Of a DNA stretch of 64,000 bases, positions 27,331 through 53,349 are shown one piece after another. Source of the DNA: Eledone cirrhosa (Eukaryota); assembly GCA_964016885.1 (NCBI GenBank), contig OZ024740.1, positions 330,708,001 through 330,772,000 on the forward strand. The letters run 5' to 3'. The notes beneath the pieces were generated by a model that saw nothing but the letters and a program-made list of their open reading frames with translations, was not told the DNA's origin and did no database searches. Every line of letters begins with the position of its first letter. Within the stretch, counting starts at the first letter, position 1. Made by a program: the position numbers and the translations under genes.

Positions 27331-27331
<1 letters not shown>

Positions 27332-28409: not shown

Positions 28410-28441
28410 AATAACAACAACAATAATAATAATAATAATAA

Positions 28442-28963: not shown

Positions 28964-29009
<46 letters not shown>

Positions 29010-29259
29010 GATTTCTTTATTAACCACAAGGGTTTACATAAAGTAGACATTAAGGACAGTGCAGGACAATGCAGGACGGTACAAATGGGCATTTCTGCGT
29101 GTAAAAAACAAAAACAGAGGATGTTACAAAAAATAACAATGAAAAATTCCCCAATAGGGGGGAGACTTCGGAGGGACATTTGTGGAGAAAGCCCAGTAAA
29201 AAGCCACAATGACCCTGACCACCAAGGCACGTGCCCTCTCCCAGTTTTCCACCTTTAAT

Positions 29260-32200
29260 TTACAGATATATGCTCAGAGTAGGCCCATTCACTCGGGCCA
29301 TTCTTGCTTCTCTCACCCATCTTTCAACAAAATGCTGGGAAGAGAGTACTTCCCTCTCTACTCTGATTTTCCTTTTCAAATGAAATTTGAAAAAGTCAAT
29401 CAGAGCATCACCGAAGAGGTAAGTGCTCGTCTTCAGCCCTTTCAAACGTGTCCACCATACTATCACTTTCGCCATGGCCACCAGGCAGATAAAAACTGCC
29501 TGCCCTTCCCGGCTAAAGGAGGAGGGCGGGGCAATCCTCACGATGGACTCAGATGATAGCCGGATCCGTCCTAAACGCGACAGCAGGTGTTCGACATAAA
29601 CCCACAAGTCAGCAATTTTCGGACACTGGACGAGTGCGTGCAGGACGGTTTCGTCGCCCTGCGCGCATCTCGGACATGCCCGGCTGACGGCACCTCCATG
29701 CCTGTAGAGTTTATCCCGAACTGGCAAGGCTCCTCGGTAGCACTGCCAGGCCAGAGATTTCTGGAAGTTGTCCATAGGCCCTGGCCCGAAAGTTCTTCCG
29801 AAGAGATTGGCTAGTTGATTTTCGTCGACGCCTAGAGTTTCCCCCAAGTACGTCGTCGCTCTTCCCCTCCACTAATCCTCTATAGAACGCCGAGGTGGAG
29901 TTTCCACCGATCACATTGCCCGATTGGTCGAGGGCTGTGAGCGCCTGAAGACATTCCAGTCTCTAGGCGCTCCCTCTCGGTCTTCGCTTGACCCAGGACT
30001 GCAGCTCCGTCAAGGAAACGAGCTGGGGAAACACGCGTCTAGCAAACGGCGACCACACCTGATCACCGTCGAGGAAGAGGTGGAGATGTCGTAGCCTGAG
30101 CGCGTGCCTGCGCATCATCAGCCACGGCATGCCCAGCCCTCCACGTAGCGGGTGTTGACAACAGATGGACCGCCTGACCATCGGAGCGCGTCCCTTCCAC
30201 AAAAAGCGAAAGAGCAAACGCTCCAGCACAGTCAGGCGAGGCTTAGGACAAGGTACGACGGTCAGGCGGTAGCAGATGACGGACGCGATGTACGCGTTAG
30301 CCACCTCCGCTCGACCTTTCAGGGATAGCTTCCTCGGCCCATTTCTGGGTGAGAGAAGCCACCCTGCTCGTCACCTCGTCCCAGTTTTTGTCCGTCTGGA
30401 GGTCCGGACCGAACCAGACCCCTAGCAATTTAACTGGTCCGTCCGTCCAGCGTCCGACGACGCTGTTGGACGGCATGGACCTGCCTCTCCAGGTGCCGAG
30501 CTGCAGGCCCACTGACTTTTCCTGGTTGATCATTGCTCCTGTCACCGCTTCGTATTCTCTTAGTGTAGTGCCGATCGCCTCGATGTGTTTGGCGTTCGAC
30601 ACCACTACGGTGACATCGTCCGCATATGCTGATACGGATCTTCCGCATCCTAGTTCGCGCGGGACCCCCCTCAACGTCTCCAGTTTGTGCAGTAATGGCC
30701 CGAGAGTCAATACGTACAAGAGGGACGAGAGGGGACATCCTTGGCGGACCGAGCGCATGATGTTGAACGGTTCCGACAGGTGACCGTTCACTCTCACCAC
30801 AGAGCAGATGTCGCTGTGCATGGCAGCGATCCAGCCTCTGAAGACGGGCCCAAAGCCAGCCGCCCTCAGGACTGCCGCTAGGTAACGATGGTCGACCCTA
30901 TCGAAAGCTTTCGACTGATCTAAATTGATCAAGGACCCACCCGTGCCAGGTTCCCTAGCTACCCTCTCTACGATGTATCGCATGAGGTGGAGGTTGTCGT
31001 GGATGGATCTGTCGGGAATGGCGCATGTCTGCGCCTCTCCCACCAGACCACCAACGACAAGCGCCAACCTCTTTGCTAGCACCTTGGCCCAAATCTTAAA
31101 CTCTGTGTTTAGCAGAGTTATGGGCCAGAAATTTTCTATGTTATCCCCCTTGTTCGGATCCTTTCTCAGCAGTGCCACCGCTCCTCGGCTCACAGAACTG
31201 GGAATTCTCCCGTTCTGTTGCCAGTTGCAGTAGACGTCCGCCAAGAGGCCTCCGAACAAGTCTGGCATCTGTACGTAAAGTTCATAGGGCAGACCATCCA
31301 AACCAGGCGATTTACCCCTTGTGCAGCCAGTCATTGCCTCCCTTACTTCAGCGGCTGTTATCGGCTTTTCGCAACACTTCGCCTCAGTGGCCGAGAGCCG
31401 CGGCAGTCCGTCGAGGTAGACACTAAAGTCCATCCCTCTACCCGGCCCACCGCTGCCCCCGAACAGCTGAGCGAAGTGTCGCTGAAAAGCTTCACACATT
31501 TGCCCGGGATCGAGTAGCATGCGCCCGTCGTGGTCCACCAAAGACCGGATCGTGGCTTTGTTGCCACGACGCGCCTCCGCCACTCGGGCCCATTGAACGG
31601 CTTTCGTCCCCTCGTGTCTGAGAGCACGCACCATTGCTCTGACAACGCAGCCTTCGTGCTTTGCATTGAAGAATTGGTCAAGGGGCAATTTCGCCGCAAG
31701 CACGTCGGTCGCAATGCCTTTGCTAAGCGCCTCGTCTAATTTTCTAACTAGTTCTCCCTCTGCTCTATTTTTCTCTATTGCTAAAGCCTTACTAAATCTA
31801 ATCGATTCTATTCTAATCGCTCTTTTCAGAGCAAACCACCACTTGTTGTTGACGATGGCCCCCGTCAACGCCCGCTTAACTAGTTCGCTAATCCGGTCTC
31901 TGTAGGCCTTGCGCGCTGGTAAGGACGCGTTTAGCTTCCAGTAGCCGGGTCCTCGTCTATGAAGCCTATCTAAGTCAAGCACACAGATCACGAATGTGTG
32001 GTCTGTGTAGCTGACTATCTTGAATTGTGGACAGCCTATGCTAGACCTATCTATTTCCCTACAAAATACTCTATCTAGATATGATCTGGATGACCCTATG
32101 CGGTTTGTCCAAGTCCACATTGGCACATTCGGGAAATCCAATCGGTACCTGTCAGACAGTTCAAAACGCCTGAGCAGGTTGGTGAGGCTCTTGCACCCTC

Positions 32201-32678
32201 CACCCCTATCCGCTAATCCCACACAGTCCCAGCGTACATCTAAGATCCCGTTCCAGTCGCCCACTAACACTAAAGAGCGCGACGTTCCAAGAAAGGTCTC
32301 CAGACGCCGGAAGAAATCAGGCCGCCCTGCTCCTGTCGGGGCATAGACGGCCACTAGCCTGAAAGCTTGCCCGTCTCCGCTGGTCACGTCCAGCACCACC
32401 AGCTTACCCTCTGGGTCCAGGAAGATGGCCCGTATGGCGAGATCCAAACCTCTCCGAAAAAGTACAGCAACTCCTCCACCGGATCCAGGACGGCTGGGAG
32501 ATGCGTACACATCGTAGCCGCCGAAGATCGGTGCGAAGGCCCGTGCTTCGGAGATTCTGGTCTCGCTGATGGCCACTACATCTATGTTTAGTGACCTGAG
32601 GTCGTTGAGCAGGTGACCCTGCTTCCAAGACGACCCCAAGCCACGCGCATTTATGCTGCCTATTCTGAGTGAGGTCAT
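29260..32678 (-). pseudogene. Element B ORF2: APE endonuclease, reverse transcriptase, CCHC finger (few disruptions)
   Basis: SINARGL, AISET, GDWN, LDR, TDH, GPGYWKLN, KSPGLDG, DQSKAFD, VRQGCPLS, YADD, CPRC..ETVLHALVQC. Frameshifts near 30330 and 29845, stop at 29963. Confidence 0.92.
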
Positions 32679-32713
32679 GTTTAAAATAGAGTGAAAAAGA
32701 TGGGAAAGACCAC

Positions 32714-34809
32714 TTACCGTACTTTTGGTAGAGGAGGGATGGTTTTTACATCCCTTTTCACTTGATCGTCTGGTGAAGGGACCGTTGAATCGTCCCTTCG
32801 GCTGGTCGTCGGCTCTTCTAAGAGAATGTCTGAGTATACTCTTCGATTGATGGTTCCTCCTAGGTCCCTGAAATCACCAACTGTGTTGGGGAATTTCGTT
32901 TTAATATTTGTGTATTGTTTCTGTGCTATTTTTAGCAGTCTTATGTTAGTTGGCGTTTTGATTGGTGCTGGTATTATGTAGTCCTGTTGTGAAATGTCTG
33001 TGTGTTCAATTATGTAAGTCATTAGTTTCTTGTTGTGTGTATTTATTGCCGTGCATTTGTTTTTCTGGGGGTGGGGTGTGGTTCTGCTATTTTCTTGTCG
33101 TTGTTGCTGGGTGTGTGTGTTTTGTTGTTGTGTTTGCGATGTTGGTGCTTGTGGTGGTGGTGTTGAAGGTGTTGTTGGCGGTGGGGTTGTCGCCGGTGGT
33201 GATGGTGGCGCTAGTGTGGGTGGTGATGGTGTTGGTGTTGTTGCTGCTGTGGGTCTCTTTGCAGTAGACTTTACCCTTTTCTCATTTCTTTCCTCCCTTT
33301 TCAAAGGCGACGATGCGCTGCTTCTGCGTTTGTGCCTTCTTACGACCTTTTGCCATCTCTCTCCCACCTCACACTCCATGTCTGATTCTGTGAGGTCGGG
33401 GAGGGGTACCAACTCCACTCTTTCACTTGTTGTTGTTGGTGATGTTTGCACTGGAGTCTCTGTTGCAGCTGCATTTGGTATTGCTGTTGTTGTTGTTAGT
33501 ATTTCCACTGCTGCTGCTGTTTTTGATTTCCGTGGAGTGGGTATGGGTGCCACGGGCCTATCGTTCCTGGTTGCCGCTTGTCCTGTTGCTGGTAGCCGTG
33601 GAGCCGGATTCGGAAGGAGGGGGGTTTTCTCCTTTCTCAGGGTCTTCTCGTTGCAGAAGGCCCTGAGGTGAGTCTTCGATCCACAGCGAAAGCATTTCGG
33701 GCGTTTGCCCTCAACACTTATGGGCAGTTGAGTGCCGTTATCGAAGTCTATCACATCCGGGATAGCTTCGATGCACTCCTGGTTGGTTTGGATTAGCATC
33801 TCAATGGAGGAGCCGACCCAATCTTCTCTTACTTTTTTCTGTACTTGCAGTACAGTTGTTTTGTCCTCGATTCCGACGAGGACAGACGCGGCCAGCCAAG
33901 AAGGGGTCATTCCGGGGGGGACGTGGGTCAGTTTGACCCTCACAATTTTTTGCCCACAGTAGGAGGGCACCAACACCATTTCCTCGCTCCTTAGGGTCAC
34001 TACTGATTGGGCCTTTGCCTCCTGGGGTGTGGCAAAAAGTACGTCTACGGTGGCATATTTTTTGCCTCGGGTGATGTGCGTTTTCCGCTGCCACACAGAC
34101 CCCAAGGCTTTTTGTATTTGGGCCTCTGTGGCTCTTTCCACCCTACGGGATTTTGTACTTACTGTACGGTACGTGACCGTACAGTGCTCTTGGGTTTCGA
34201 AAACATTTTTCGCTGCCTTGCAGATTGCTCGGTGTCCGTTGTTTGTCACCATCTTCTTCGCTTCCTCTAATTCCTCATTTGTTATGAGGATTGTTTCCAA
34301 GTTTTTCGCAATACCTGCAAATGAGATTGGTTTTTCTCTGCTGTTGTTGTTGTCGTCAGAGCTGCTGGTACTTTTGTTGTTGCTGCTGGTACTACGACTA
34401 CTGCCTCCGCCGCTGTTGCTGTGGTTGTTGTTGGTGTTGCTGCTGCTAATGCTGTTGTTGTTTATGCTGCTGGTGATGCTGTTGGGCTGCTACTGTTGTT
34501 TTCATTGTCACTGTTGCTGTTGTTATTACGGCTGCTACTGCTATTATTCCTGACGTCAGACGAATGAACTGGGTTTTCGTATTTCCCGCACACCTGTTTC
34601 GTAGCTGTCGTCGTCGTCGTGGAGAAACCTTGCACGCTTTGCACGAGACTTTTCTTTTCTTTCGTCACTTGCGAAAGAGAAGGGAGGGAGAGAGACACAT
34701 TTAAAGAAGGGAGGGAGAGAGACAATCTTCTCTCTGCTGTAGTGATGATTGAGGAAGAAGAAGACGGAATGAGTGGGAGTGACGTATGAAATTTCTTTTT
34801 CGTAGCCAT
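32714..34809 (-). pseudogene. Element B ORF1 (zinc-knuckle nucleic-acid-binding protein), one apparent frameshift near 34480
   Basis: ORF 32714-34300 has CFRCGSKTHLRAFC (CX2CX4HX4C) and a Pro/Thr-rich tail. The frame extends upstream through an Asn/Ser-rich tract and SFAGIAK. The ATG at 34809 is one frame off. Confidence 0.85.
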
Positions 34810-35024
34810 GTTGTTTTTTGTTTAAAATGAAATTTTGGGTACAAAACCCCAATAACTGATTATTTAACCCCGAAGGGCCAAATAACGGACAGAAAGACCC
34901 CTCTCACGAGGAGGAGGGTGTCTTTATCAACAATTTGGTTCAAGTTTTAAACAATTTACAATTGTTTTAACAGTTAAAAATTACTATACCTTACAGAGCC
35001 GAGCCTCCGTCAACCATGGCATTC

Positions 35025-35063
<39 letters not shown>

Positions 35064-35100
35064 GCAAGATAAATGCAACTGTAATAATAATAATAATAAT

Positions 35101-35643
35101 GATTTCTTTATTAACCACAAGGGTTTACATAAAGTAGACATTAAGGACAGTGCAGGACAATGCAGGACGGTACAAATGGGCATTTCTGCGTGTAAAAAAA
35201 ACAAAAACAGAGGATGTAACAAAAATAACAATGAAAATAACAATGAAAAATTCCCCAATAGGGGGGAGACTTCGGAGGGACATTTGTGGAGAAAGCCCAG
35301 TAAAAAGCCACAATGACCCTGACCACCAAGGCAAGTGCCCTCTCCCAGTTTTCCACCTTTAGTTTACAGATATATACTCAGAGTCGGCCCATTCACTCGG
35401 GCCATTCTTGCTTCTCTCACCCATCTTTCAACAAAATGCTGGGAAGAGAGCACTTCCTTCTCTACTCTGATTTTCCTTTTCAAATGAAATTTGAAAAAGT
35501 CAATCAGAGCATCACCGAAGAGGTAAGTGCTCGTCTTCAGCCCTTTCAAACGTGTCCACCATACTATCTCTTTCGCCATGGCCACCAGACAGATAAAAAC
35601 TGCCTGCCCTTCCCGGCTAAAGGAGGAGGGCGGGGCAATCCTC
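35101..35643 (-). mobile_element. Tx1-like element C, 5'-truncated 3' end
   Basis: Near-identical to 29010-29540. (TAA)n at both ends. Confidence 0.92.
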
Positions 35644-35660
35644 AATAATAATAATAATAA

Positions 35661-35914
35661 GGTCTAATGATTACTTATCGCAAATCCCAGGAAACCCGCG
35701 TATAGGAGAAATACAAAAGATAGTATTAATGGGAACTGCCCATATACTAAGGAAGATTCTGTCAATATAAGTACATCACAAGTCTAAACACTAAAGATTT
35801 ATGTGTGAATATGTATGATCTTTCTTGAACATGGCGCACCTTGTTGTCTCTTGAGGTCACTGGTTGTGACTTGGTGATAACTCGTATGAACATAAAGCAA
35901 GATAAATGCAACTC
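35661..35914 (+). mobile_element. R4/Dong-like family 2, short 3' fragment
   Basis: Near-identical to 28710-28963. (TAA)n at both ends. Confidence 0.9.
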
Positions 35915-35936
35915 TAATAATAATAATAATAATAAT

Positions 35937-36850
35937 AGACTGAATTGATGACCCGGTCAAAATAAGAAAATAAAAAAATAAAAATCAAGTTTTAGTTTTA
36001 ACAAAATGTTTAAATCCAATATTAAGGTAATATGTCAACACATATACGCGACTAATGATAATTTCACTAAAGATAATTTCACCACCAATACCACCACCAC
36101 TACCACGATGAAAACTCTGATCAAGTCGACTCAAATTTCTACTCCAACTTCAACACCATCACTACAGTAATACGACCACATCACCACCACCACTGCCTCA
36201 TTATCGCTACCGCCACCACTCTCTCCCACTACCTCCTGCTAGTTGCTGCTGGCACAGCACCGCCACCACCACCGCCGCCGCTGCCTCAATATCACTACCG
36301 CCGGTATTCTCTCCCGCTACCCCCTGCTACATTGTAGAATTCTCACTAAAAGAGGAAAACATCAAAATATATAAATAGACTGAATTGATGACTCGGTCAA
36401 AATCAAAAAAAAAAAAATCAAAATCAAGTTTTAGTTTTAACAAAATGTTTAATTCCAATAGTAAGATAATATGTCTACACATATACGCGACTAATGATAA
36501 TTTCACTAAAGATAATTTCACCACCACTGCCACGATGAAAACTCTGGTCAAGTCGACTCTTCTGCTCCATCTTCAACACCATCGCTACAGTAATACGACC
36601 ACATCGCCACCGCCGCTGCCTCATTATCGCTACCGCCGCTGCCTCATTATCGCTACCGCCGCTATTCTCTCCCACTACCTCCTGCTAGTTGCTGCTGGCA
36701 CAGCACCGCCACCGCCGCCGCCGCCGCTGCCTCATTATCACTACCGCCGCTATTCTCTCCCGGTAGCCTCTGCTACATTGTAGAATTCTCACTAAAAAAA
36801 GAAGGCATCAAAATATATAAATAGACTGAATTGGTCAAAATAAAAAAAAT
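35937..36850 (+). repeat. ~440 bp tandem monomers (2 plus a partial third)
   Basis: agactgaattg begins units at 35937, 36377 and 36823. The units align throughout. Confidence 0.9.
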
Positions 36851-37165
36851 AAAAAATAAAAATCAAAGCAGCACAGCGACAACGAAAAACGTAAAGGAAA
36901 TAAAAATGAAGAGAAAATCAAACGGACGGACTGAGAAGGGAAGGGAAAAACTAAGTCAGACAATCAAACACTACATTAAAATAAAACTTATGCTTATTTA
37001 TTTTTGGGGTTTTATCTGCCTGTTTGTTTGTTTGTATATTTGGGTTCGTCTACAGCGTGATAATGCCACACAAAAGTCACGTGCATTGACGAAACCACCG
37101 GAGACAAGTAATTCACCGGTGGTTATGTAACCATACATTCGCCAATCCTCGATAAGAGTGTTTAA

Positions 37166-40100
37166 ATGTCGAACCTAAACAGTTCGAATAACGGTGAAAT
37201 GGAGACTAGAATGTCATGTGACAGACTCTCACCCAACAGCTGCTCCCTGGCTCAGCAGCAAGGACCTGGCTGTCAACCAAATACTGCTGGTGTCGGAGCA
37301 AGAAGAAGAAGGAAATGGACCAGAACCAACTGGACGAAAGAATTGAATAGAACTGTTATCCAATGTTACCTGAAGAGTAACCCCAAGGAGAAAGGCTATA
37401 GGAAAAGGATGCATAACATCTGGAACGTGATTGGTCCATTTAAATTAGATGAACAAAAACTGACCGGGCAGGCTCGAGTAATAAGAACTAATGGGTAGAT
37501 AAGCGAGCTGGAACTGGAGGAACTGAGCAGAGAGATTTAGGCTGGAAATGGAGAGTAGAGTATGCCAGGCAAACGAGCCAGTGGGAAATGAAGGTGAAGA
37601 GGTCGAGAGAACGGAGGAACCACCCGAAGCAGACAATGATCTGAATGCTGAGATAAATAATACCTGGAACAGAGATACGGCCACTGAGGAGATAAATGCT
37701 GACGGGCTAGGACACGATTTGGTTGATATCCTAAACTTAGTGGTAGATGAATTGAACAACGATAGTGGGAGACTTATGAACCTAAGATTTGTAGAGAGGA
37801 AAAAGTTAAAAGAAACAACAGCTATGGTAAACAAAGTCATCCCATACATTGAGGCGAGGAGCCTTCACCAGTGCAACAATATCCTCAAAGTAACAGCAAA
37901 TACGGTGAGGAAACTACTTGGTATAAAAGCGAGAGGAAACAACAGACAAGAAAGAGCTGAACCTTGGTGGAAGAAACGACTGAGTGGTCAAATCAGGGAA
38001 ATGAGAAATGACATTGGAAAGCTTGAGTCCCTACTGAATGGGACACTAAAAAACATAGACACTAAAAATAGACTGGAAATAAAGTACAAAACTAGGAGGA
38101 AAAAGGTAAATATTATCATAGAGGAACTGTAGCAACGATTGAAGCAAAGAGTGCAAAAATCAGGCGATACGAGAACAGAGTCAGTCAGTATAGACAGAAC
38201 CGCATGTTCGACAGCAACCAGAAGATGCTGTTTGGACAGCTTGAAGGAAAAGAAAGAGGCAACGACTTGATCCCTGAGTCGGAACAAACTAAAACATTCT
38301 GGAGAGGAATATGGGAGCAGGATGTTAGACATAATGACCAGGCAGTGTGGATTGAAACAGTACAGAAGGAGATCAGTGAACAGGCACACCAACAAACTGA
38401 TTTGAGTATCACAGTTGAAACTCTTAAGGGGCAGGCCAAAAAACTAACCAACTGGAAATCACCTGGCCCAGATGGTGTGCAGGGGTATTGGATTAAAAAC
38501 ATAACATCCCTCCACCCGAAACTGACAACCATGTTCAATGACTGCTTGATGTCAGGTGAGGTAGCAGAGTGGTTGACAAAAGGTACCATAGTTCTGGTAA
38601 TGAAAGATCAAATCAAGGGTAATGATGTTACCAACTATAGACCTATCACATGTCTGCTCGTAATGTTGAAACTGTTGACAAGCATTGTGTCTGAGGAAAT
38701 CTACCATCACCTCCACACAAACAACTTGTTACCGGACGAACAGAAAGGATGCCGAAAGAAGTCACGTGGTACAAAGGACCAGTTACTTATTGATAAAATG
38801 GTAATGAGGAATTGCCATGGGATGGATAGACTACAAAAAGGCATTTGACGTGGTGCCTCATTCTTGGATCACCAAAAGCCTGGAGATCTTCAAGGTGGCA
38901 GATAACATCAGACAGTTGTTGGGCAAAAGTATGAAGTCCTGGGAAACAGAGTTAACATCAACTGGAGAATTCTTGGGAAGCGTGAAGATCAAGAGAGGTA
39001 TCTTCCAGGGAGATAGTCTGTCCCCTCTGTTGTTTGTCCTTACCCTGATGCCCCTGATCAGTGTACTGCGAAAAGTGAGAGCAGGATACAGGTTGGGAAA
39101 GGGAGGGCTTACCATCAATCACCTCCTCTTCGTGGACGATCTTAAGCTCTTCGGGAAGAGTGAGAAAGAGTTGGATGTGCTTCTTGACACTGTCCGTATT
39201 TTCAGCAATTTGGTATTAGTAAGTGTGGAGTCATTGTGATGAAGAGGGGTATGTTGAGCAGAAGTAACGGAATCCAGGTACCAACGGGAGAGATGATAAA
39301 GGAAATTGACTCTGAAGAAGGATACAAGTATTTGGGCGTTCTGGAGGCTGATGACATCAAGAACAAAAAAATGAAGGAATTGATAAGAACTGAATACATT
39401 CGGAGAGTAAGGAGCGTATTAAAATCACATCTGAACAGTAGGAATGCCATAAGTGCAGTCAATTCCCGAGATGTGTCCATTATTAGGTAGAGTGCGGGAA
39501 TTCTGAGATGGAATGTTGCTGAACAAAAAGAAATGGATAGGAAGACTAGGAAGCTATTGAATATATACAACATGTTCCACAATAGGCGTGATGTCGATAG
39601 ACTCTACTTAAGGAGATCTGAAGATGGAAGAGGTATTATCAGCATAGAGGACTGTGTTCAGATGGAGAAACACAACCTACTCAAATACGTGACTGATAGT
39701 AAGGAGCCAATGCTCAGAATTGTACTGAAGGAGAGGACAATAGACCAGGGAATGTCCAAGGAGGAAATAACAACAAGGAGAAAGAACAGCCTTCATGAAA
39801 AATCCCTTCATAGTACCTTCTTTGAGAAAACTGAATTCAGAGATCCACAGACATGGAACTGGTTGAAAAGAGGAGACCTTAAAAAGGCTACAGAAGGAAT
39901 GCTAATGGCTGTGCAAGAGTAGGCCCTCAAAACGAAGTGGTTGAAACACCATATTTACAAGGAGGAGGCTAGCCCACTGTGCAGGATCTGTTGAGAGGGA
40001 GAGGAGACTGTGGCTCACATTGTATCCGAGTGTAAACACCTAGCCCATACTCACTATAAGGGTTGGAGACATGATGTGATGGGCAGGGTGATCCACTGGC

Positions 40101-40870: not shown

Positions 40871-43800
40871 TTACAGACACATACTCAGAGAAGGCCCATT
40901 CATTCGGGCCATACTTGCTTCTCTCACCCATCTTTCAACAAAATGCTGGGAAGAGAGCACTTCCCTCTCTACCCTGATTTTCCTTTTCAGATGAAATTTG
41001 AGAAAGTTAATCAGGGCATCACCGAAGAGGTAAGTGCTCGTCTTCAGCCCTTTCAAACGTGTCCACCATACTATCTCTTTCGCCATGGCCACCAGACAGA
41101 TAAAAACTGCCTGCCCTTCGCGGCTAAAGGAAGAGGGTGGGGCAATCCTCACGATGGACTCAGCTGATAGCTGGATCCGTCCTACACGTGACAGCAGGTA
41201 TTCGACATAAACCCACAAGTCAGCAATGCTCGGACACTGGACGAGTGCGTGCAGGACGGTTTCGTCGCCCTGTGCGCATCTCGGACATGCCCGGCTGACG
41301 GCACCTCCATGCCTGTAAAGTTTATCCCGAACTGGCAAAGCACCCCGGTAGCACTGCCAGGCCAGGGATTTCTGGAATTTGTACATAGGCCCCGGCCCGA
41401 AAGTCCTTCCGAAGAGATTGGCTATTTGATTTTCGTCGGCGCCTAGAGTTTCTCCAAGTACGTCGTCGCTCTTCCCCTCCACTAATCCCCTATAGAACGC
41501 CAAGGTGGAGTTTCCACCGATCACATTGCCCGATTGGTCGAGGGCTGTGAGCGCCTGAAGACATTCCAGTCTCCAAGCGCTCCCTCTCGGTCTTCGCTTG
41601 ACCCAGGACTGCAGCTCCGTCAAGGAGACGAGCTGGGGAAAAACGTTTCTAGCAAACGGCGACCACACCTGATCACCGTCGAGGAAGAGGTGGAGATGTC
41701 GTAGCCTGAGCGCGTGTCTGCGCATCATTGCCACGGCATGCCCAGCCCTCCACGTAGCGGGTGTTGACAGCAGATGGACCGCCTGACCATCGGAGCGCGT
41801 CCCTTCCACAAGAAGCGAAACAGCAAACGCTCCAGCGCCGTCAGGCGGGGCTTAGGACAAGGTACGACGGTCAGGCGGTAGTAGATGACGGACGCGATGT
41901 ACGCGTTAGCCACCTCTGCTCGACCTTTCATGGATAACTTCCTCTCGGCCCATTTCTGGGTGAAAGAAGCCACCCTGCTCGTCACCTCGTCCCAGTATTT
42001 GTCTGTCTGGAGGTCTGGACCGAACCAGACCCCTAGCAATTTAACCGGTCCGTCCGTCCAGCTCCCGACGACGCTGTTGGACGGCATGGACCTGCCTCTC
42101 CAGGTGCCGAGCTGCAGGCCCACTGACTTTTCCTGGTTGATCATTGCTCCTGTCACCGCTTCGTATTCTCTTAGTGTAGTGCCGATCGCCTCGATGTGTT
42201 TGGCGTTCGACACCACTACGGTGACATCGTCGGCATATGCTGACACGGATCTTCCGCATCCTAGTTCGCGCGGGACCTCCCTCAACGTCTCCAGTTTGTG
42301 CAGTAATGGCTCGAGAGTCAATACGTACAATAGGGACGAGAGGGGACATCTTTGGCGGACCGAGCGCATGATGTTGAACGGTTCCGAAAGGTGACCGTTC
42401 ACTCTCACTACAGAGCAGATGTCGCTGTGCATGGCCGCGATCCAGCCTCTGAAGACGGGCCTAAAGCCAGCCGCCCTCAGGACTGCCGCTAGGTAACGAT
42501 GGTCGATCCTATCGAAGGCTTTCGACTGATCTAAATTGATCAAAGACCCACCCGTGCCAGGTTCCCTAGCTACCCTCTCTACGATGTATCGCATGAGGTG
42601 GAGGTTGTCGTGGATGGATCTGTCGGGAATGGCGCATGTCTGTGCCTCTCCCACCAGACCACCAACGACTAGCGCCAACCTCTTTCCTAGCACCTTGGCC
42701 AAAATGTTGAACTCTGTGTTTAGTAGAGTTATGGGCCTAAAATTATCTATGTTATCCCCCTTGTTCGGATCCTTTCTCAGCAGCGCCACCTCTCCTCGGC
42801 TCACACAGCTGGGAATTCTCCCGTTCTGTTGCCAGTTGCAGTAGACGTCCGCCAAGAGGCCTCCGAACAAGTTTGGCATTTGTACGTAAAGTTCATAGGG
42901 CAGACCATCCAAACCAGGCGATTTACCCCTTGTACAACTAGTCATTGCATCCCGTACTTCAGCGGTTGTTATCGGCTTTTCGCAACAATCCGCCTCAGTG
43001 GCCGAAAGCCGCGGGAGTCCGTCGAGGTAGACATTAAAGTCCATCCCTCCCTCCGGCCCGCCACTGCCCCCGAACAGTTGAGCGAAGTGTCGCTGAAAAG
43101 CTTCACACATTTGCCCGTGATCGAGTAGCATGCGCCCGTCGTGGTCCACCAAAGACCGGATCGTGGCTCTGTTGCCACGACGCGCCTCCACCACTCGGGC
43201 CCATTGAACGGCTTTCGTCCCCTCGTGTCTGAGAGCACGCACCCTAGCTCTGACAACGCAGCCTTCGTGCTTTGCATTGAAGAATTGGTCAAGGGCCAAT
43301 TTCGCCGCAAGTACGTCGGTAGCGATGCCTTTGCTAAGCGCCTCATCTAATTTTCTAACTAATTCTCCCTCTGCTCTATTTTTCTCTATTGCTAAAGTCT
43401 TACTAAACCTAATGGACTCTATTCTAATTGCTCTTTTCAGAGCAAACCACCACTTGTTGTTGACGATGGCCCCCGTCAACGCCCGCTTAACTAGTTCGCT
43501 AATCCGGTCTCTGTAAGCCTTGCGCGCTGGTAAGGACGCGTTTAGGTTCCAGTAGCCGGGTCCTCGTCTATGAAGCCTATCTAAGTCAAGCACACAGATC
43601 ACGAATTTGTGGTCCGTGTAGCTGACTATCTTGATTTGTGGACAGCCTATGCTAGACCTATCTATTTCCCTACAAAATACTCTATCTAGATATGATCTGG
43701 ATGACCCTATGCAATTTGTCCAAGTCCACATTGGTACATTCGGGATATCCATTCGGTACCTGTCAGACAGTTCAAAACGTCTGAGCAGGTTGGTGAGACT

Positions 43801-44289
43801 CTTGCACCCTCCTTCCCTATCCACTAATCCCACACAAGCCCAGCGTGCATCTAAGATCCCGTTCCAGTCGCCCACTAACACTAAAGAGCGGGACGTTCCA
43901 AGAAACTTCTCCAGACGCCGGAAGAAATCAGGCCGCCCTGCTCCTGTCGGGGCATAGACGGCCACTAACCTGAAAGCTTGCCCGTCTCCGCTGGTCACGT
44001 CCAGCACCACCAACTTACCCTCTGGGTCCAGGAAGATGGCCCGTATGGCAAGATCCAAAACTCTCCGAAAAAGCACAGCAACTCCTCCCCCCGATCCCGG
44101 ACGGCTGGGAGATGCGTACACATCGTAACCGCCGAAGATCGTTGCGAAAGCCTGTGCTTCGGAGATTCTGGTCTCGCTGATGGCCACTACATCTATGTTT
44201 AGTGACCTGAGGTCGTTGAGCAGGTGGCCCTGCTTCCATGACGACCCCAAGCCACGCGCATTTATGCTGCCTATTCAGAGTGAGGTCAT
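40871..44289 (-). pseudogene. Element D ORF2 (APE-RT-CCHC)
   Basis: ATG at 44289, TGA at codon 5, 841 aa open frame 41725-44250 containing YADD, one frameshift near 41728, C-terminus to 40871. Confidence 0.92.
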
Positions 44290-44323
44290 GTCTAAAAGGA
44301 GTGGAAAAGATGGGAAAGACCAC

Positions 44324-46150
44324 TTACCTTACTTCTCGTACGGGAAGGACGGTTTTTCCATCCTTTTCACTGCTTGTGGCCTCCTCAGGAAGGATGTCCT
44401 TATAAATCCTCCTGGAGAGTGCTTGTCGGAAGTCTCCGATGTCTTTTGGGAATTTTTGTTTTAGTGTCATGTACGTTTCCTGTGTGATGCGAGTGATTTG
44501 TATGTGTGGAGGTGGTGTGAATTTTGGGGTTGTTGTGTAGTCTTTTTCTGTGATGCTGGTGTTGTGTTGGATGTAGTGTAATAATTGCTTGTTGTTCAAA
44601 TTTAATGCTGTGTAGTGTGTATCGTTTTGGTTGTTTTGTTTTGTTTGCGTTTGTTGTGGGTTTGTTTCTGTTTCGCTTTTTGGTGACTTTTGTGGTGTAG
44701 GTGATGGTGGTGTTGGGGTTAATGATGGTGATGGTGTTGGTGTTTGGGTTGATCGGGTTGGTGATGCTGGTGTGGATGGTGGTATATCTGTCCTAACTTT
44801 TTTGTTTCTTAGTTTATTTGTTTCCCTCTGTATTTTGTTTTTGGAGGGGCAAGGAAGAGAATTTTTTCTTTTTTGGTTTCTTTTTTTTTTCCGGATATCG
44901 TTTCCCACTCCTCGTCGTCACAATCTGTCTCCAGTTGTGATAGGCCGGGGAGTGGAAAATCCTCCACAGGCGTTAGTTTTTGTTGTGGCGTGGTGGATGG
45001 TGTAGGCGCCGGTGCTAGTTCTGAAGCGTTGAGTGGTGGTGGTGTTGGTTTTGCTGGTGGTGGTGGGGGTATTGGTTTTGCTACTGTTGCTGGGGTTGTT
45101 GCTGTTATAGTTGCGTCTGTTGTTGCTGCTACAGTTGTTGCTGCCATCACTGCTACTTGTGGTGTTGATGGTTGTGTCACTGGGGTGGGGAGGAGAGGTG
45201 GCCTCAACCTTTTAGCCTGAGGGCAGAAAGCCCTTAGGTGGGTTCCTTCACCACAAACGACACACCTAGGTCTTCTGCCCTCGACAATTACCGTGAGGTG
45301 GCTGCCGTCAGTGAGGTCTATTACCTCTGGGATCTCCTCAATGCTTTTTTGGTCCGCTTGGATCAGAAGCTCCGGACCAGTTCTCCTGCTTTTCTTTTGC
45401 TATTGCTATTATTTTTGTGTTGGCTTCGATGCCGGCGAGGACGGCCGCTATTAGCCAGGGAATTTCGATGGCCGGTGGAACGTGGGTCACCCTGATCTTT
45501 ACGAGTCTCTGGCCACAATAGCTTGGGACGTGTGTGAAGTCGTCACTTCTTAATGGGGCCATGGAGTGTTCTCTAGCCTCCTCTGGTGTTTCAAAGAACA
45601 CATCCACGGTTCCATACTTCTGCCCACGTCTGATGTGGGTTTTTCTTGCCCACACATGTCCCAAAGCTTTTTGGATTTGGGACTCGGATGCCCGTTCCAC
45701 TCGGCGCGATTTTACATTTATTGTTCGATACGACACGGTGCATAGGCGCCGATGCTCCATTTTATTAGGTGGGGGGGGGGGCTGACCCTGTACCCATCTT
45801 TCTTTACCAATTGTTTGGCATTTTCTAAATCCTCCTGAGTTACCGTAAATGCTTCGAACTGTTTTGCTACTCTGGCGAAACTGAGGGTCGATTTTATAAT
45901 GTCATTGTTGTTGTTGTTGCTATCGTTATTTGTGTTAATATTAATTTTAGTTTCAGTTGTGGTGGTGGTGACATCAGTCGTCTTTGGTGGGGAAGAGTCC
46001 ATTTTGCTTGATTTCATTTCGACATCACGAGTTAATTTATTTTTTTCTTCTTTTGTTTCTGTTGTCACGGTGGTGGTGGGGGTGGTGGTTGTCGCGGTGG
46101 TGGTGGTGGTGGAGGCTTTCAGCTGCTTGGTTCAGAGGTGAATTAGCCAT
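44324..46150 (-). pseudogene. Element D ORF1, frameshifted
   Basis: Pieces LSFARVAK, CTVSYRTINVKSRRVERA, PSYCGQRLV, a knuckle region at ~45225-45265, a Pro/Thr tail and RRIYKDIL..VREVR*. The start position is approximate. Confidence 0.8.
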
Positions 46151-46334
46151 TTTTTTTCAAAGAAATTTTTTGATAATAATAAAAGTTTAAATTTTTCCAT
46201 AAATTTTTCCATAAATTTTTCCATAAATGGCAATTTTTAACAAACGGAAATAACAAACCTTTGCAGAGCTCACGATGATACGATTTACTACGTAGGTCGC
46301 CAATAATAATAATAATAATAATAATAATGATAAT

Positions 46335-47596
46335 GTTTTCTTTATTAACCACAAGGGTTTACATAAAGTAGACATTAAGGACAGTACAAGACAATACAGG
46401 ACGGTACAAATGGGTATTTCTGCGTGTAAAAAAGCAGAGGATGAAATAAAATAACAAAGAAAAATTCCCCAATAGGGGGGAGACTTCCGAGGGACATTTG
46501 TGGAGAAAGCCCATTAAAAGACCACATTGGCCCTGACCACCAGGGCAAGTGCCCTCTCCCAGTTTTCCACCTTTAATTTACAGACACATACTCAGAGAAG
46601 GCCCATTCATTCGGGCCATACTTGCTTCTCTCACCCATCTTTCAACAAAATGCTGGGAAGAGAGCACTTCCCTCTCTACCCTGATTTTCCTTTTCAGATG
46701 AAATTTGAAAAAGTTAATCAGGGCATCACGGAAGAGGTAAGTGCTCGTCTTCAGCCCTTTCAAACGTGTCCACCATACTATCTCTTTCGCCGTGGCCGCC
46801 AGACAGATAAAAAACTGCCTACCCTTCCCGGCTAAAGGAAGAGGGCGGGGTAATCCTCAAGATGAACTCAGCTGATAGCTGGATCCGTCCTACACGTGAC
46901 AGCAGGTGTTCGACATAAACCCACAAGTCAGCAATGCTCGGACACTGGACGAGTGCGTGCAGGACGGTTTCGTCGCCCTGTGCGCATCTCGGACATGCCC
47001 GGCTGACGGCACCTCCATGCCTATAAAGTTTATCCCGAACTGGCAAAGCACCCCGGTAGCACTGCCAGGCCAGGGATTTCTGGAAGTTGTCCATAGGCCC
47101 CGGCCCGAAAGTCCTTCCGAAGAGATTGGCTAGTTGATTTTCGTCGACGCCTAGAGTTTCTCCAAGTACGTCGTCGCTCTTCCCCTCCACTAATCCCCTA
47201 TAGAACGCCAAGGTGGAGTTTCCACCGATCACATTGCCCGATTGGTCGAGGGCTGTGAGCGCCTGAAGACATTCCAGTCTCCAAGCGGTCCCTCTCGGTC
47301 TTCGCTTAACCCAGGACTGCAGCTCCGTCAAGGAGACGAGCTGGGGAAAAACGCGTCGAGCAAACGGCGACCACACCTGATCACCGTCGAGGAAGAGGTG
47401 GAGATGTCGTAGCCTGAGCGCGTGTCTGCGCATCATCAGCCACGGCATGCCCAGCCCTCCACGTAGCGGGTGTTGACAGCAGATAGACCGCCTGACCATC
47501 GGAGCGCGTCCCTTCCACAAGAAGCGAAACAGCAAACGCTCCAGCGCAGTCAGGCGGGGCTTAGGACAAGGTACGACGGTCAGACGGTAGTAGATG
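46335..47596 (-). mobile_element. Tx1-like element E, 5'-truncated
   Basis: Near-identical to the 3' 1.26 kb of D. (TAA)n at both ends. Confidence 0.92.
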
Positions 47597-47610
47597 ATAA
47601 TAATAATAAT

Positions 47611-50600
47611 GATTTCAGTTATTGGCCACAAGGGCCGACATATAGTGGAAAATACAAAAGACTGGGACAGTGGGGTTTTACAGAAAAATCGAGTAAACAA
47701 TATAAATAACAATAACAAAGTAACAATAAAGTAATAATAACATTACAACAAGAAAAATTCCACAATAGGGGGGATGACCACCTAGGGTTCGCTCAGGTAC
47801 CCCACTTGTCCTGAACCAATCGACGCTTCGAGAGCACCCTGGAAGGGCACTCCTCTCCTCCTCAAATTTACCTACCTACAGCCGCATGACCAGAGTATGC
47901 CCACTCACATGGGCCATTCGCCCTACATTCACCCACCTTTCAGCAAATGTAATGGGGGCAGCACTTCTCTCTCCACCCTCACCATCCTTTCTAAGTCAAA
48001 CTTGAAAAAGTTGATGAGGGATTGGCCGAAGAGAAAAGTATCTGTCTTCAGTCCTTTCAACCTCGTCCACCATACAACCTCTTTCGCTACTGCCACCAGA
48101 CAGAGGAAAATTGCCTGCTCTTCCTGGCCAAAGGAAGGCGGCGAGTCGATCTTCACTATGGTCTCGGCCGATAGCGGGATCAGTTCTACACGCTACAGCA
48201 GCTGTTCATCATAACTCCACAAGTCACTAATACACGTACACTGGACGAGTGCATGCAGAACGGTTTCGTCGCTCTGCGCGCATCTCGGACAGGTTCGTCT
48301 GACAGCACTTCGGTGCCTGTAGAGTTTATCTCGAACCGGCAGTGCCCCTCGGTAGCTCTGCCAAGCGAGGGATTTTTGGAAATTATCCATCGTCCCCGGC
48401 TCGAAAGTCCTCCGGTACAGACTGGTTAGTTCGACTTCGTTGACTCTCAGAGCCTCTCCGAGTGCGTCGTCGCACTTGCCCACCACAAATCCTCTATAGA
48501 ACTCGAGAGTGGAAGTTCCACTGACCGCATTGCCCGCCTGGTAGAGGGAAGTGAGGGCCTGGCAAAATTACAGATGCCAGTCACCCAGTCTAGGTCTCTT
48601 CTTGACCTAGGACTGCAGCTCAGTCAAAGAAACGAGCTGCGGAAAGGCCCGTCTGACAAACGGCGACCACACCTGTTCACCGTTTAGGCAGAATATCTGG
48701 AGATGCCGAAAGCTTCAGCGCGTGTCTGCGCATCATTAGCCACGGCATGCCCAGCCCTCCACCTAGAGAGGAGAGCTGGCAGCAGATGAACTGCTTCACC
48801 AGCGGAACCTAACCCCTCCACAAGAATTTGAAGAAGAGTCGCTCCAAGATGGCGAGGAGCGAACGGGGGCAAGGGACGACGGTCAGACGGTAGTAGATGA
48901 CGGACGCGATGTACGCGTTCGCCACCTCCGCCCGACCTTTCAGTGATAGCTTCATCCCAGCCCATTTCTGGGTGAGACTGGCTACTCTGCCCGTCACCTC
49001 GTCCCAATTCTTATCCACCTGGAGGTCTGGCCCGAACCAAACCCCTAGCAACTTTACTGGTCCGTCCGTCCAGCGCCTAACGACGCTGTTGGACGGCATG
49101 GACTTGCCCCTCCAGGTGCCGAGTTGCAAGCCCACCGACTTTTCCGGGTTAAGTTTTGCTCCCGTCAACCTTTCATATTCCTCCAATAAGTTGCCGACCA
49201 CCTCGATTTCTGAGGTGTCCGACACCATCACGGTGATGTCGTCCGCATAAACCGACACAGCTTTTCCGCGTCTCGGTTCGAGCGGGATGCCCTGCAACAG
49301 CTCCAGCTTCCGCAATAAAGGCTCGAGAGTCAATACGTACAGAAGGGAGGTGAGAGGGCACCCTTGACGGACCGATCGGGAGACCTGAAACGGTTCCGAG
49401 AGGTGGCCCTTAATTATGACCATCGAGCAGGTGCCGCTGTGCATTGCAGCGACCCAGCTTCTGAAGACGGGGCCGAAGCCAGCCGCTTTGAGGACAGCCT
49501 CCAGGTACCGATGGTCGACCCTATCGAATGCTTTCGATTGATCTAAATTGATTAGAGTCCCACCAAAGCCAGGTTTACACCCTACCCTCTCTATGATGTA
49601 TCGCATTAGGTGGAGGTTGTCGTGTATAGACCCGGTTGGGATTGCGCAAGTTTGCGCCTCCCCACCAAATCCCTGACGAAAAGCGCCAACCTCTTCGTTA
49701 ACACCCTGGCCAAAATCTTAAACTCTTAAAGCTCGTAGGGCAGACCCTCCAAACTGGGTGACTTGCGCCTCATGCAGCCGACAAGGGCATCCTGAATCTC
49801 GGCTGAAGTAATTGGCATTTCGCAGCGCCCAGCGTCAGCCGTCGAGAGTTGCGGCAAGCCATCGAGGTAGGGACTGAAGTCCGCCACCATCTCTGACCCG
49901 TCACTTCCCCGAACAACCGAGCAAAATGTTGGCGAAAAGCCTCACACTTCCGCTTGGAATGTCCGTCTCGGTCCGTCAAAGACCGAATCGTGGTTTTATT
50001 ACCACGCTGCGCCTCTGCCACGCGTCCCATCGAACAGCCTTGGGTCCCTCATATCTCAGAGCACGCGCCTTAGCTCTGACAATGCAACCTTCGTGTTTCG
50101 CATTGAAGAAATGGTCTAATGCCATTCTCGCCGCTAGCACGTCAGTTGCAATGCCACTACCAATAGCCTCGTCTAACCTATCTACCAACTCTCCCTCCTT
50201 TCTATTTTTGTCTAACGCTACTTCTTTGCTAAATTCTATCGACATTACTCTAATCTCTCTGTTGAGAGCCCCCCACCATTCTATTGTTGACGACTCCCCC
50301 TGTCAACTTTTTCCTAACTAAATTGTTGACTTGGTCCCTGTAAGCCTTACGTGCCGGAAATGACATGTTTAGCTTCCAGTAACCAGGTCCTAACCTACGC
50401 ATCTTATCTAGGTCGACCATACAGATCACAAACTTGTGATCTGAATAGGCGACCGTTTCAAAACGTGGACAGCTTACATTATTTCTGTCTATTTTCCTAA
50501 TGAATATCATGTCTATATACGATCTAGATGATCTTATGCTGTTATTCCAGGTCCACACTGGTGCATTAGGGACATCTAGTCGGTACCTGTCAGCCAGTTG

Positions 50601-53334
50601 GAACTGGCTGATCATGTTCTTGAGGCTTTTAAACGTCCTGCTCCTATCGGATACTCCCACACAGTCCCAGCGTGCGTCTAAGATTCTGTTCCAGTCTCCC
50701 GCTAACAGTAAAGGGCAAGACGTGCCCAGAAAGGCTTCCAGGCGTCTAAAGAAGTCCGGCTGTCCTGCACTGTAGGAGCAAAGACGGCCACCAGTCTAAA
50801 GGCACCACCTTCGTTATTGTTCACGTCCAGGACCACCAACTTCCCGTCCGGGTCCCGGAAGATCGACCTTACCTCAAGATCCAGGCCTTTCCACAAGAGC
50901 ACTGCCACACCACCTCCCATTCCCGGCCGGCTAACAGATGCATATATCTGATAGAAGTCGAGAATGGGGGCTAGTGCGCGCGTGTCGGAAATCCTGGTCT
51001 CGCTGACAGCAATTACATCCATTTCTAGAGACCTGAGGTCGTTGAGCAGGTAACCCTGCTTCCAGGACGATCCCAGGGCTCGAACATTTAAACATGCTAC
51101 TCTTAATATGGCCATGTTGGCAGGTTAAAAAGAGAGAGAGGAAAGGTTTACTTACCTTCCGGGCTCTTATGAATGTCGGGTGGTTCGACCTCCATAGTTG
51201 TTGGGGTTTCTTTTGGGAACCCCTTTAAAAGTCTTGAAGTGGGTTTACGTTCAGGGTTCCCACGTCCCGAGAAAAGCTGTCTCGTATTTATTTGTATAAA
51301 GCGAGCAACATTCGCACCAGAATCAAATCTTCCGGCACGCGGATAGTGCTCGATTTAAACATTTCCCGCTCTTTTTGTGTATTTTCACTTCGTGCTACGA
51401 GGGCCATCAGTTCCTTATTGGCCCTCCTGACGAGCACCAAGTTTTGAATGTTTTGTTGGGTGATTTTATTTGTTTGCGTGGCTGTGATGGTGATGGTTTT
51501 GGTGGTGTTGTTTCGGTTGTGTCTGTGTTTGCTGTCAGTGCGGTGTCTGTGGTTTCAGATGTTTGTGTGCATATTTTTTCTTGCGTCTGTTTAGGTTGTT
51601 TGCGTCTGAGGGATTCTAGTGATGGTGATGGTGGTGTTGATGTTAGTGTTATTGGAGAGATGTTGGCGTGGGTGGTGTATGCGTTTTTTATTGTGGGTGA
51701 TTTTGTGCTTTGTTGAGTTTTGTTTTACTTTTTGTGTTTCCTTTTTTGTATTTTGGTGGATTTGGGTTTTCCCTCATCTTCACTACTGGTAGAAGAGGGG
51801 TATATGTCTGTAAGTGTGTCTGTGTTTATGTTTATGGTTTTATTGGTGTGTGTATGTTTGGGAGTAGGGGGAATTTGACAGCTTTCCGCATTTCCCCCCT
51901 GGGTGGTCAACATTGGTGGTGGTCTTTCTATTGGTGTTGTTTTTGGTGGTTTTGCCGGTGCTGGTGTTGGTTGTGGTCCTCGCCCCGGCATCGGCAGCAG
52001 TGGAGCCTTTCGACCCCTTGCCTCTTTCAGCAGTTGAGGGCAGAAGGCTCGCAAATGGGTTTCCCCCACAAACAAAACAATGCGGCCTCTTTACTTCGGT
52101 CATAATATGAATGACCGTCCCATTCTGAAGGCGGATGTGGTCCGGGATTGTCTTCATGTTCTCGGGCTTGATCTCGAGGCGGATCTCCAGGTCAACCCTG
52201 GACCAATCCTCTCTGGCCGTTCTGGTCACTTCTATAGAGACGGTATACGTCCCCTCCACAATCACACATCCCAGAAGCCACCACATGTCAAGTCCTGGTG
52301 GGATTCTGGGAATGCGGAGACGAGCGGATCTTTTTTCCCATGTGGGAGGGGTACATTATGACCTTGCTGGTTGTGCAAGGAGTCATAGCGTGTTTCATAG
52401 CGAGGGCGTCTAACTTGAACCACACCGAAATGGTGCCGTACTGTTTGATCCTCGCTATGTATTCGGTGTCTTCTCTGATGCACCTCAGCGCGACTACGAC
52501 ATCTGCTTGTGGGATTAAAGCTGCCGTTTTGGTTTGTGCTGAGATGCATCTATAATACACCGTTCTGCGCTCCACTGCCTCAATAGCTTCTACCAGGACA
52601 GTTAAGTTGGCCCAGGTTTGATCAGCTTCCATACCAGGGCCAGCTTTTCATCTTTGTTTGAGAGGTCCATGTTGAAGCATAGCCTCTTTTTTGTTGCTGC
52701 CGCAGAAAAAGTGTTCTTCTTGTTTTCGTTGGGAGTGTTGTTGTCGTTGTCGTTGTTCTTGTTGATGTTGTTGTTATCACTGTCGCTGTTATCATTGTTG
52801 TCTTTGTTGCCACCGTTGTTCTCGGTGCAGTTGGTGTTGCTGTTGTTGGTGTTGTCACTATTTGTTTTCATGTTAGTGGTGTTGATATTGTTGTTGCATT
52901 TGTCATTTTTTTTTTGTTATCTGTATCTTCGTTGTCGCTGTTACTGTCATTTTTTTCAAAATTAGAGTTCTCATTGGTATCATTGGTGTCTTTCTTTACA
53001 TTGTTTGTGGTGGTGTTTGTGTTTTCAATTTGTGTTAATTTCGCTGGAGCGCTCCTCTCAACTTCTACGTCGTTGTCGTACGACAGCAGACATATCGCTG
53101 GGGAACATGGCTCAGCGAGGTTTTTTTGTTATTTTTTTTTTCGTAAATTTTTTTAAAATGTGAAAAAACTTCAAATATTTGGGCCAAAAGGCCCAAATAT
53201 TATTCTTTTCTATTCACAGGGCAAAGTCCAAGGGCTTGTATGCCTTACACAACAACACAAATAAAAAAAAATCAGTTTTGATAGGTAAATAAGTGAAATT
53301 ACTGGAGCGAGCAAAAAGACGTCCGTTCAGATTC
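47611..53334 (-). mobile_element. Tx1-like element F, divergent family, full span with an RT deletion
   Basis: ORF2 from 51115 MAILRVACLNVRALG..AVSET, SDH, GPGYWKLN, DQSKAFD, YADD, CPRC..HALVQC. ORF1 remnants TFSAAATKK and HCFVCG/ETHLRAFC. Different UTRs. (TAA)n at both ends. Confidence 0.9.
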
Positions 53335-53349
53335 AATAATAATAATAAT

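What the first reader, a model, noticed from the sequence alone, without database searches (positions are those of the whole stretch)
29007..53349. Tx1-like L1-clade lineage apparently specific for (TTA)n, with no poly(A) tail
Seen: (TAA)n lies at both ends of full-length copies (B, D, F) and, importantly, at the 5' truncation points of C (35644) and E (47597). The 3' ends have an AATAAA-like signal followed directly by (TTA)n rather than poly(A). Even copy A keeps one aat next to (TA)n. Known: microsatellite-specific Tx1 families exist (Kibi for (TC)n, Koshi for (TTC)n). Inference: this is a target-specific APE lineage for (TTA)n whose specificity is conserved across divergent families. I do not know of such a family being described.
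Basis: partly seen in the sequence, partly recalled or inferred. Interest (0 to 1): 0.75.

Follow-up and report, generated by a model that had tools for sequence, protein, structure and literature searches.

The report
Tailless Tx1-like retrotransposon targeting ATT microsatellites
In this genome (likely an octopus relative's) a jumping-gene family with over 9,000 copies sits mostly in ATT repeats and has no poly(A) tail, while a close sister family sits in TATC repeats instead, which likely makes the pair a natural test of how such elements choose where to land.

Summary
Real, and genome-wide. The window holds seven APE-RT LINE copies (A-G, minus strand). In G000, 7,193 of 9,314 B/D-type 3' ends are followed directly by (ATT)3; 9 matches are A-rich, and 7 of their 8 places soon run into ATT too. 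2,373 of 2,459 B-type 5' ends are preceded by (ATT)3. Truncated 5' ends are weaker: 11 of 26, against a 2-3% background. At imperfect targets 14-19-nt duplications begin at the first ATT, and two paralogous empty sites show that no tail was added. Corrections: D's 3' tract has only two units; copy G's 5' break has no TAA; a Dong-like family shares the repeat on the opposite strand (30 of 30 neighbours); and specificity is not conserved throughout. B, D and F keep ATT, but a sister family (RT 72-77% identical) sits in (TATC)n (759 of 1,045). Likely mechanism: a nick on the AAT strand plus RNA-target pairing; the endonuclease's share is untested. Tx1 membership is likely, not proven. Nine paper searches found no ATT-specific Tx1; Repbase/Dfam were not searchable. 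This scan noted the same system on at least eight other pieces of this genome.

The parts
22304..26484 (-). Copy A: old, internally deleted APE-RT copy (73-79% identical to B and D). One AAT then (TA)29 at its 3' end; (TAA)15 at its 5' end
26485..26531 (.). (TAA)15 between A's 5' end and a Dong-like fragment
26533..28963 (+). Three 5'-truncated RLE-type (Dong-like) pieces of two families, each ending in (AAT)n (27275-27330, 28410-28441, 28964-29008)
   Evidence: CCHC and RPD..D..K motif read from the translation; label recalled
28964..29008 (.). (TAA)15 shared tail-to-tail by a Dong-like 3' end and B's 3' end
29009..35024 (-). Copy B, full length. ORF1 frame 32714-34489 with CCHC knuckle; ORF2 ATG at 32678, open to 30297 (APE + RT), then frameshifted; C-terminal frame 29260-29871
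35025..35100 (.). (AAT)12, a 20-nt remnant of the Dong-like 3' end, then (TAA)6
35101..35643 (-). Copy C, 5'-truncated; (AAT)5 at the break (35644-35660)
35661..35937 (+). Truncated Dong-like 3' piece with (TAA)7
36934..40620 (+). Near-complete, broken RLE-type (Dong-like) element, tail-to-tail with D across AATAAT (40621-40626); 5' boundary approximate
40627..46301 (-). Copy D, full length, different 5' region/ORF1; ORF2 frames 41725-44274 (APE + RT) and 40871-41851 (zf-RVT)
46302..46334 (.). (AAT)11 between D's 5' end and E's 3' end
46335..47597 (-). Copy E, 5'-truncated, 97.5% identical to D; its break abuts (TAA)4 shared with F's 3' end
47612..53334 (-). Copy F, full length, divergent subfamily (72-78% nt to B in ORF2); (AAT)5 at its 5' end
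53350..56243 (-). Copy G, truncated and internally deleted; TAA at the 3' end only, none at the 5' break (counter-example)

Best explanation
This is a tailless L1/Tx1-like LINE lineage whose copies sit in (ATT)n tracts in one orientation and duplicate 14-19 nt of target, likely because its APE endonuclease nicks the AAT strand and the RNA's 3' end pairs with the nicked repeat to start reverse transcription. Shown: the target (ATT, sometimes only one or two units), the fixed orientation, no poly(A), target duplications that start at the first A after ...AAAGAAA(T/A/G)C, and no added tail at two sites whose empty form is known. Inferred: (1) the nick falls at or near AAT/AAT, a T-A step as in L1's TTTT/AA; (2) the poly(A) signal lies so near the element end that cleavage would fall inside the flanking repeat, so the RNA would end in (AUU)n, pair with the primer and leave the poly(A) uncopied; (3) full-length RNAs likely start in the upstream repeat, so their 5' ends join by homology, while truncated ones often join after a deletion; (4) each insertion leaves ATT on both sides, and a Dong-like family feeds the same tracts from the other strand, which builds stacks like this one; (5) the TATC sister family likely arose by a target switch inside this lineage.
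For: 3' ends: 7,193 of 9,314 followed by (ATT)3; only 152 have a non-A first base, 184 have one unit then non-A; A-rich: 9 matches, 7 of 8 places soon run into ATT. 5' ends: 2,373 of 2,459 B-type; 41 of 41 full-length and 11 of 26 truncated copies in a position-ordered sample, background 1.9-2.8%. Duplications of 14-19 nt in 8 of 19 short-tract copies with both ends in view. Empty paralogous sites: L175's host repeat occurs 4,862 times without the stub; L206's host site is intact in L022. F subfamily: 2,424 of 3,090. APE catalytic residues align with L1. 30 of 30 Dong-like neighbours face the opposite way. Endonuclease swaps change the target of SART1/TRAS1, and repeat-like RNA pairing is proposed for SART1 (PMC7265360, passages).
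Against: 15 of 26 truncated 5' junctions lack ATT within 14 nt, as does copy G. In the one-unit and non-A classes the script found a duplication in only 1 of 8 and 0 of 17 scorable copies. Only 2 of 23 full-length copies with an imperfect 3' tract repeat the imperfection upstream (read by eye). The hairpin loop that shapes L1 target choice differs at only one consistent residue between ATT and TATC families, so the endonuclease's role is unproven. Some insertions use a single ATT in other sequence (L206, L218). No nicking data, and no filled/empty comparison between individuals.
Confidence: 0.7

Rival explanations
1. RNA-guided choice: the endonuclease only nicks AT-rich DNA loosely, and the site is selected by pairing of read-through (AUU)n at the RNA 3' end. 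The target is then inherited from the donor's flank, and the TATC sister switched without a change of enzyme specificity.
For: The poly(A) signal sits 5-7 nt before the end. Full-length 5' ends are almost always in ATT while truncated ones are not. Off-array sites still give C|ATT at the junction. The hairpin loops of ATT and TATC families are nearly the same.
Against: Endonuclease domains differ at about 40% of residues between ATT and TATC families, with several group-specific positions. Tx1L endonuclease is sequence-specific in vitro (PMC1950540, passages).
Confidence: 0.2
2. (ATT)n is a tail made by the element, which inserts at random; arrays arise because tails are later hit by chance.
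For: 3' tracts are long and nearly universal; 15 of 26 truncated 5' ends lack ATT.
Against: Duplications include the first ATT; two empty sites already hold the ATT and no extra units were added; 11 of 26 truncated 5' ends in ATT against 2-3% background; 30 of 75 sampled 3' tracts end on the tail of an opposite-facing Dong-like element.
Confidence: 0.04
3. The association is secondary: unequal crossing-over or gene conversion at the microsatellites multiplied a few insertions, or selection spared copies that lie in repeats.
For: Some head-to-tail runs share the same imperfect spacer (L038, L215, L216), and two pairs in the sample were segmental duplicates.
Against: Copies are spread over many contigs with unrelated flanks and different truncation points; individual target duplications exist.
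Confidence: 0.06

Closest known systems
Kibi (TC)n and Koshi (TTC)n of teleosts; crocodilian Tx1 families in (TTCC)n/(TTTC)n (PMC4494074, passages)
   Same: APE-type Tx1-like LINEs that insert into microsatellites
   Different: Their targets are pyrimidine-only repeats; here it is (ATT)n, and (TATC)n in the sister family, in a cephalopod. Relationship untested: no Kibi/Koshi sequence was available.
Dong (Bombyx mori), DongAg, DongBg: TAA-targeting (PMC3812793, passage); R4 clade is RLE-type (PMC4640811, passage; Dong's place in R4 recalled, and RepeatMasker class 'Dong-R4' seen)
   Same: Same microsatellite; Dong-like copies share the tracts in this window
   Different: Different endonuclease class and the opposite strand (30 of 30 neighbours).
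Tx1L of Xenopus laevis (PMC1950540, passages)
   Same: APE-RT ORF2 with sequence-specific insertion
   Different: Targets one site in a DNA transposon; 11-residue hairpin loop, whereas the loop here aligns as short as or shorter than L1's.
SART1/TRAS1 (R1 clade, Bombyx telomeric repeats; PMC7265360, passages)
   Same: APE-type elements that home to a simple repeat
   Different: R1 clade, telomeric TTAGG, and SART1 keeps a poly(A) tail.
'L1-Tx1' class in the Octopus vulgaris repeat annotation (PMC13282606, parts 1-2 of 3 read)
   Same: 13 recently active L1-Tx1 and 5 Dong-R4 families in an octopus; may include relatives of this lineage
   Different: No target analysis in the text read; its supplement and library were not seen.

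Membership tests
L1 group / Tx1 clade | ORF2 with N-terminal APE, RT and C-terminal zinc-binding region | tested here: met
   Pfam Exo_endo_phos, RVT_1, zf-RVT; best PDB match human L1 ORF2p, E 2e-47
Tx1 clade | ORF1 with a CCHC zinc knuckle (feature recalled) | tested here: met
   C-x2-C-x4-H-x4-C found in A, B and D; not found in degenerate F
Tx1 clade | RT groups with reference Tx1 families rather than L1 | tested here: inconclusive
   Nearest informatively named hit: alligator 'transposon TX1 149 kDa protein', 40% over RT. The quick tree puts the octopod clade (SH-aLRT 100) in an unresolved group with it; no Tx1L, Kibi, Koshi or mammalian L1 in the tree
Tx1 clade (target-specific families) | One sequence type in more than 20% of flanks (criterion of PMC4494074) | tested here: met
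   77% of 3' ends and 96.5% of B-type 5' ends
Tx1 clade | Endonuclease nicks the target sequence specifically | not testable with these tools
   needs an in vitro assay
Kibi/Koshi | (TC)n or (TTC)n target | tested here: not met
   Target is (ATT)n; the few ends reading ATT then (CTT)n had (ATT)n at the 5' side
Dong (R4) | Restriction-like endonuclease after the RT; 3' end followed by (TAA)n | tested here: not met
   Copies A-G carry an APE and are followed by (ATT)n; the plus-strand neighbours fit Dong by motif and tail
Already named family in Repbase/Dfam | Existing entry with TTA/TAA target | not testable with these tools
   Databases not available; paper searches found none

The most novel reading that the evidence does not exclude
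A cephalopod Tx1-like radiation in which the landing site is set largely by the RNA: tailless transcripts carry the flanking microsatellite at both ends, pair with it, and so inherit and can switch their target (ATT to TATC) with little change in the endonuclease, while an unrelated RLE family and a very abundant SINE use and renew the same repeat.
Probability: 0.2. Interest if true: 0.75.

Novelty: new variant of a known kind. Interest (0 to 1): 0.5.

Why it matters
It adds an A/T-only target to the known APE-type microsatellite targeters and gives two closely related, partly intact families (ORF2 67% identical) with different targets in one genome. That makes a long-standing question directly testable: how much of LINE site choice lies in the endonuclease and how much in RNA-DNA pairing. 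It also explains stacked LINE arrays in this genome, and warns that TAA and GATA microsatellite markers here are insertion hot spots.

Tried and rejected
Empty alleles in other individuals: one run search and two lays of assembled contigs gave no answer, because both chosen flanks proved to be high-copy repeats and contigs break at the tracts; only pointed to the paralogous empty site then counted. Atlas search with homologue P0003 gave only RVT_1/APE clusters without clade names. Cluster look-up gave no useful names. The careful tree did not finish; only the quick tree is cited. I considered the 20-nt Dong-like stretch at 35063-35081 as part of a long duplication made by B; I prefer a very short Dong-like remnant, because a 70-nt remnant flanked by TAA exists (L116/L117) and measured duplications are at most 19 nt; not excluded. 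Dropped from the 75-site sample before counting: 2 with the 5' end out of view, 3 rearranged or chimeric, 1 full 5' end with internal deletion, 2 segmental duplicates. Supplements of PMC4494074 could not be read; they and its Fig. 3 may list further Tx1 targets.
Full report
Setting. The window is G000:C1:330708001-330772000 of a 3.0-Gb assembly. The closest named proteins to the element are from Argonauta hians (56%; 72% over RT), so the host is likely an octopod.

Window anatomy. Seven related copies lie on the minus strand: A 22304-26484, B 29009-35024, C 35101-35643, D 40627-46301, E 46335-47597, F 47612-53334 and G 53350-56243. ORF2 has APE, RT and zf-RVT domains and matches human L1 ORF2p at E 2e-47 with the catalytic residues aligned. 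ORF1 of A, B and D has a CCHC knuckle. Between them lie plus-strand pieces of two RLE-type families that end in (TAA)n; I call them Dong-like from the motif and tail (label recalled).

3' ends, genome-wide. The 23-nt motif that ends B/D-type copies occurs 9,314 times. 7,193 are followed within 1-3 nt by (ATT)3. 349 have two units then a non-A base (slightly shorter motif), 184 one unit, and 152 a non-A first base, many of which still continue TTATT. A run of seven A follows in 9 matches at 8 places; 7 of the 8 run into ATT shortly after. So there is no poly(A) tail. The F-type end occurs 3,090 times, 2,424 followed by ATTATT.

5' ends. The B-type start occurs 2,459 times, 2,373 preceded by (ATT)3; 9 are not preceded by T, and 8 of these still follow an ATT tract. 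I scored 75 3' ends taken in order of position from the start of C1 (65 of the first 100 listed, plus further matches inside the fetched stretches). After dropping 8 (listed under Tried and rejected), 41 of 41 full-length and 11 of 26 truncated copies had two ATT units within 14 nt upstream. Background was 1.9% in local flanks and 2.6-2.8% in the window outside the cluster (binomial p 6e-13; copies in arrays are not fully independent). One truncated copy had the repeat on the wrong strand. The truncated copies are the independent test: far above chance, but under half.

Target or tail. In copies with a short, imperfect 3' tract the duplication can be read. Of 30 loci, 19 had both ends in view; 8 showed an exact 14-19-nt repeat (up to 5 nt of it overlapping the element by microhomology) that starts at the first ATT after ...AAAGAAA(T/A/G)C. 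In the one-unit and non-A classes the script found 1 of 8 and 0 of 17, so many junctions are deleted or rearranged. Two filled sites have known empty forms. L175's host repeat occurs 4,862 times without the stub, with the same ATTATT. L206 lies antisense in a D-type copy whose intact form is in L022. In both, the ATT was there before and no units were added. By contrast, all 23 full-length copies with imperfect 3' tracts had (ATT)n at the 5' end, but only 2 repeated the imperfection upstream (by eye). That fits 5' joining through an RNA-borne repeat, or later mutation of the 3' tract; it is inference.

Is specificity conserved? Partly. B and D share ORF2 (95% nt) under different 5' regions; F is 72-78% nt and 70% in the endonuclease. 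All use ATT. Earlier notes of this scan pointed to a sister group in GATA repeats, and I found it in L122. Its end motif occurs 1,045 times, 759 followed by TATCTA; none of 30 loci had (ATT)3, and duplications of 17-18 nt were seen in L262 and L267. Its ORF2 is 67% identical to B, its endonuclease 58-62%, its RT 72-77% to B and F. In a quick tree of 42 RT rows the octopod families form one clade (SH-aLRT 100) and F joins the TATC families (96), which suggests that TATC is derived; F's row is short and the careful tree did not finish. In the hairpin loop that shapes L1 target choice (PMC1950540, passages) the three ATT rows read NRIG/NCIG and the five TATC rows NRSG; other group-specific sites exist. 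These are candidates only.

Shared repeat. 30 of the 75 sampled 3' ends have a Dong-like 3' end within 150 nt, all 30 facing the opposite way. Two unrelated endonuclease classes therefore use the two strands of one repeat, and each insertion leaves repeat on both sides; this likely builds the stacks.

Mechanism. Shown: target, polarity, duplication size, no tail. Inferred: a nick on the AAT strand at or near a T-A step; RNA cleaved and polyadenylated inside the downstream repeat because AATAAA lies only 5-7 nt before the element end; priming by (AUU)n pairing, so poly(A) is not copied; homology joining of full-length 5' ends. Precedents: endonuclease swaps change the SART1/TRAS1 target, and repeat-like RNA annealing was proposed for SART1 (PMC7265360, passages). 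I cannot separate enzyme from RNA contributions by sequence.

What is known. Kibi (TC)n, Koshi (TTC)n and crocodilian (TTCC)n/(TTTC)n Tx1 families (PMC4494074, passages; supplements not held). TAA is listed only for Dong (PMC3812793, passages). Octopus papers list L1-Tx1 and Dong-R4 as expanded or active with no target analysis in what I read (PMC13282606, parts 1-2 of 3; PMC8967140, passages). Passages of PMC4640811, PMC3747384 and PMC8869645 add none. Nine searches found no ATT/TTA-specific Tx1; Kojima and Fujiwara 2004, Repbase and Dfam were not seen. Membership in Tx1 is likely (structure; alligator TX1-named protein 40% over RT) but not proven by a reference tree.

Verdict. It is a new variant of a known kind: a new target, no tail, and a sister switch that makes a good experiment. 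The scan has already noted the same system on at least eight other pieces of this genome; those notes are not independent support. Interest 0.5.

Noticed in passing
L157, L168 and many flanks; G000-wide: A short SINE-like repeat whose 3' end resembles the LINE's end and is followed by ATTATT (89,720 exact matches; no denominator counted). In L168 it is followed by the same ATT-starting target sequence as a LINE stub, so it is likely mobilised by this lineage.
   Followed up: partly
window 32712-32720 (B), 44322-44330 (D), 24395-24402 (A), 51151-51158 (F), minus strand, approximate: A splice-donor-like GGTAAGT overlaps the end of ORF1 and is followed by a pyrimidine tract up to the ORF2 ATG in all four subfamilies despite divergence; could affect ORF1/ORF2 expression.
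   Followed up: no
window 35934-36833: Two-copy 446-bp tandem repeat directly after a (TAA)7 tract, rich in ACC/GCC runs; origin unknown.
   Followed up: no
copies B, D, A, F 5' regions: B and D share ORF2 (95% nt) but have unrelated 5' UTR/ORF1 starts, and chimeras such as L102 (F front, D back) occur: 5'-module swapping among subfamilies.
   Followed up: partly
L182: The element's 3' end and about 35 nt of downstream flank are mirrored as an inverted duplication at the 5' side, a fold-back junction.
   Followed up: no
L135 (C1:34774939): A truncated copy whose 5' break abuts telomere-like TAACCC repeats.
   Followed up: no
L249, L250, L364: Some sister-family copies are followed by (TACC)n rather than (TATC)n, a possible further drift of target.
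   Followed up: no
G000:C1:441098534-441134912; C2:188056358-188074641; L038: Head-to-tail runs of about 6-kb copies with the same imperfect spacer, possibly local amplification by unequal crossing-over.
   Followed up: no
window 60069-63623 and 20863-22151: Inverted-repeat pairs bounded by (TA)n or TAAAA runs outside the cluster, possibly MITE-like elements.
   Followed up: no
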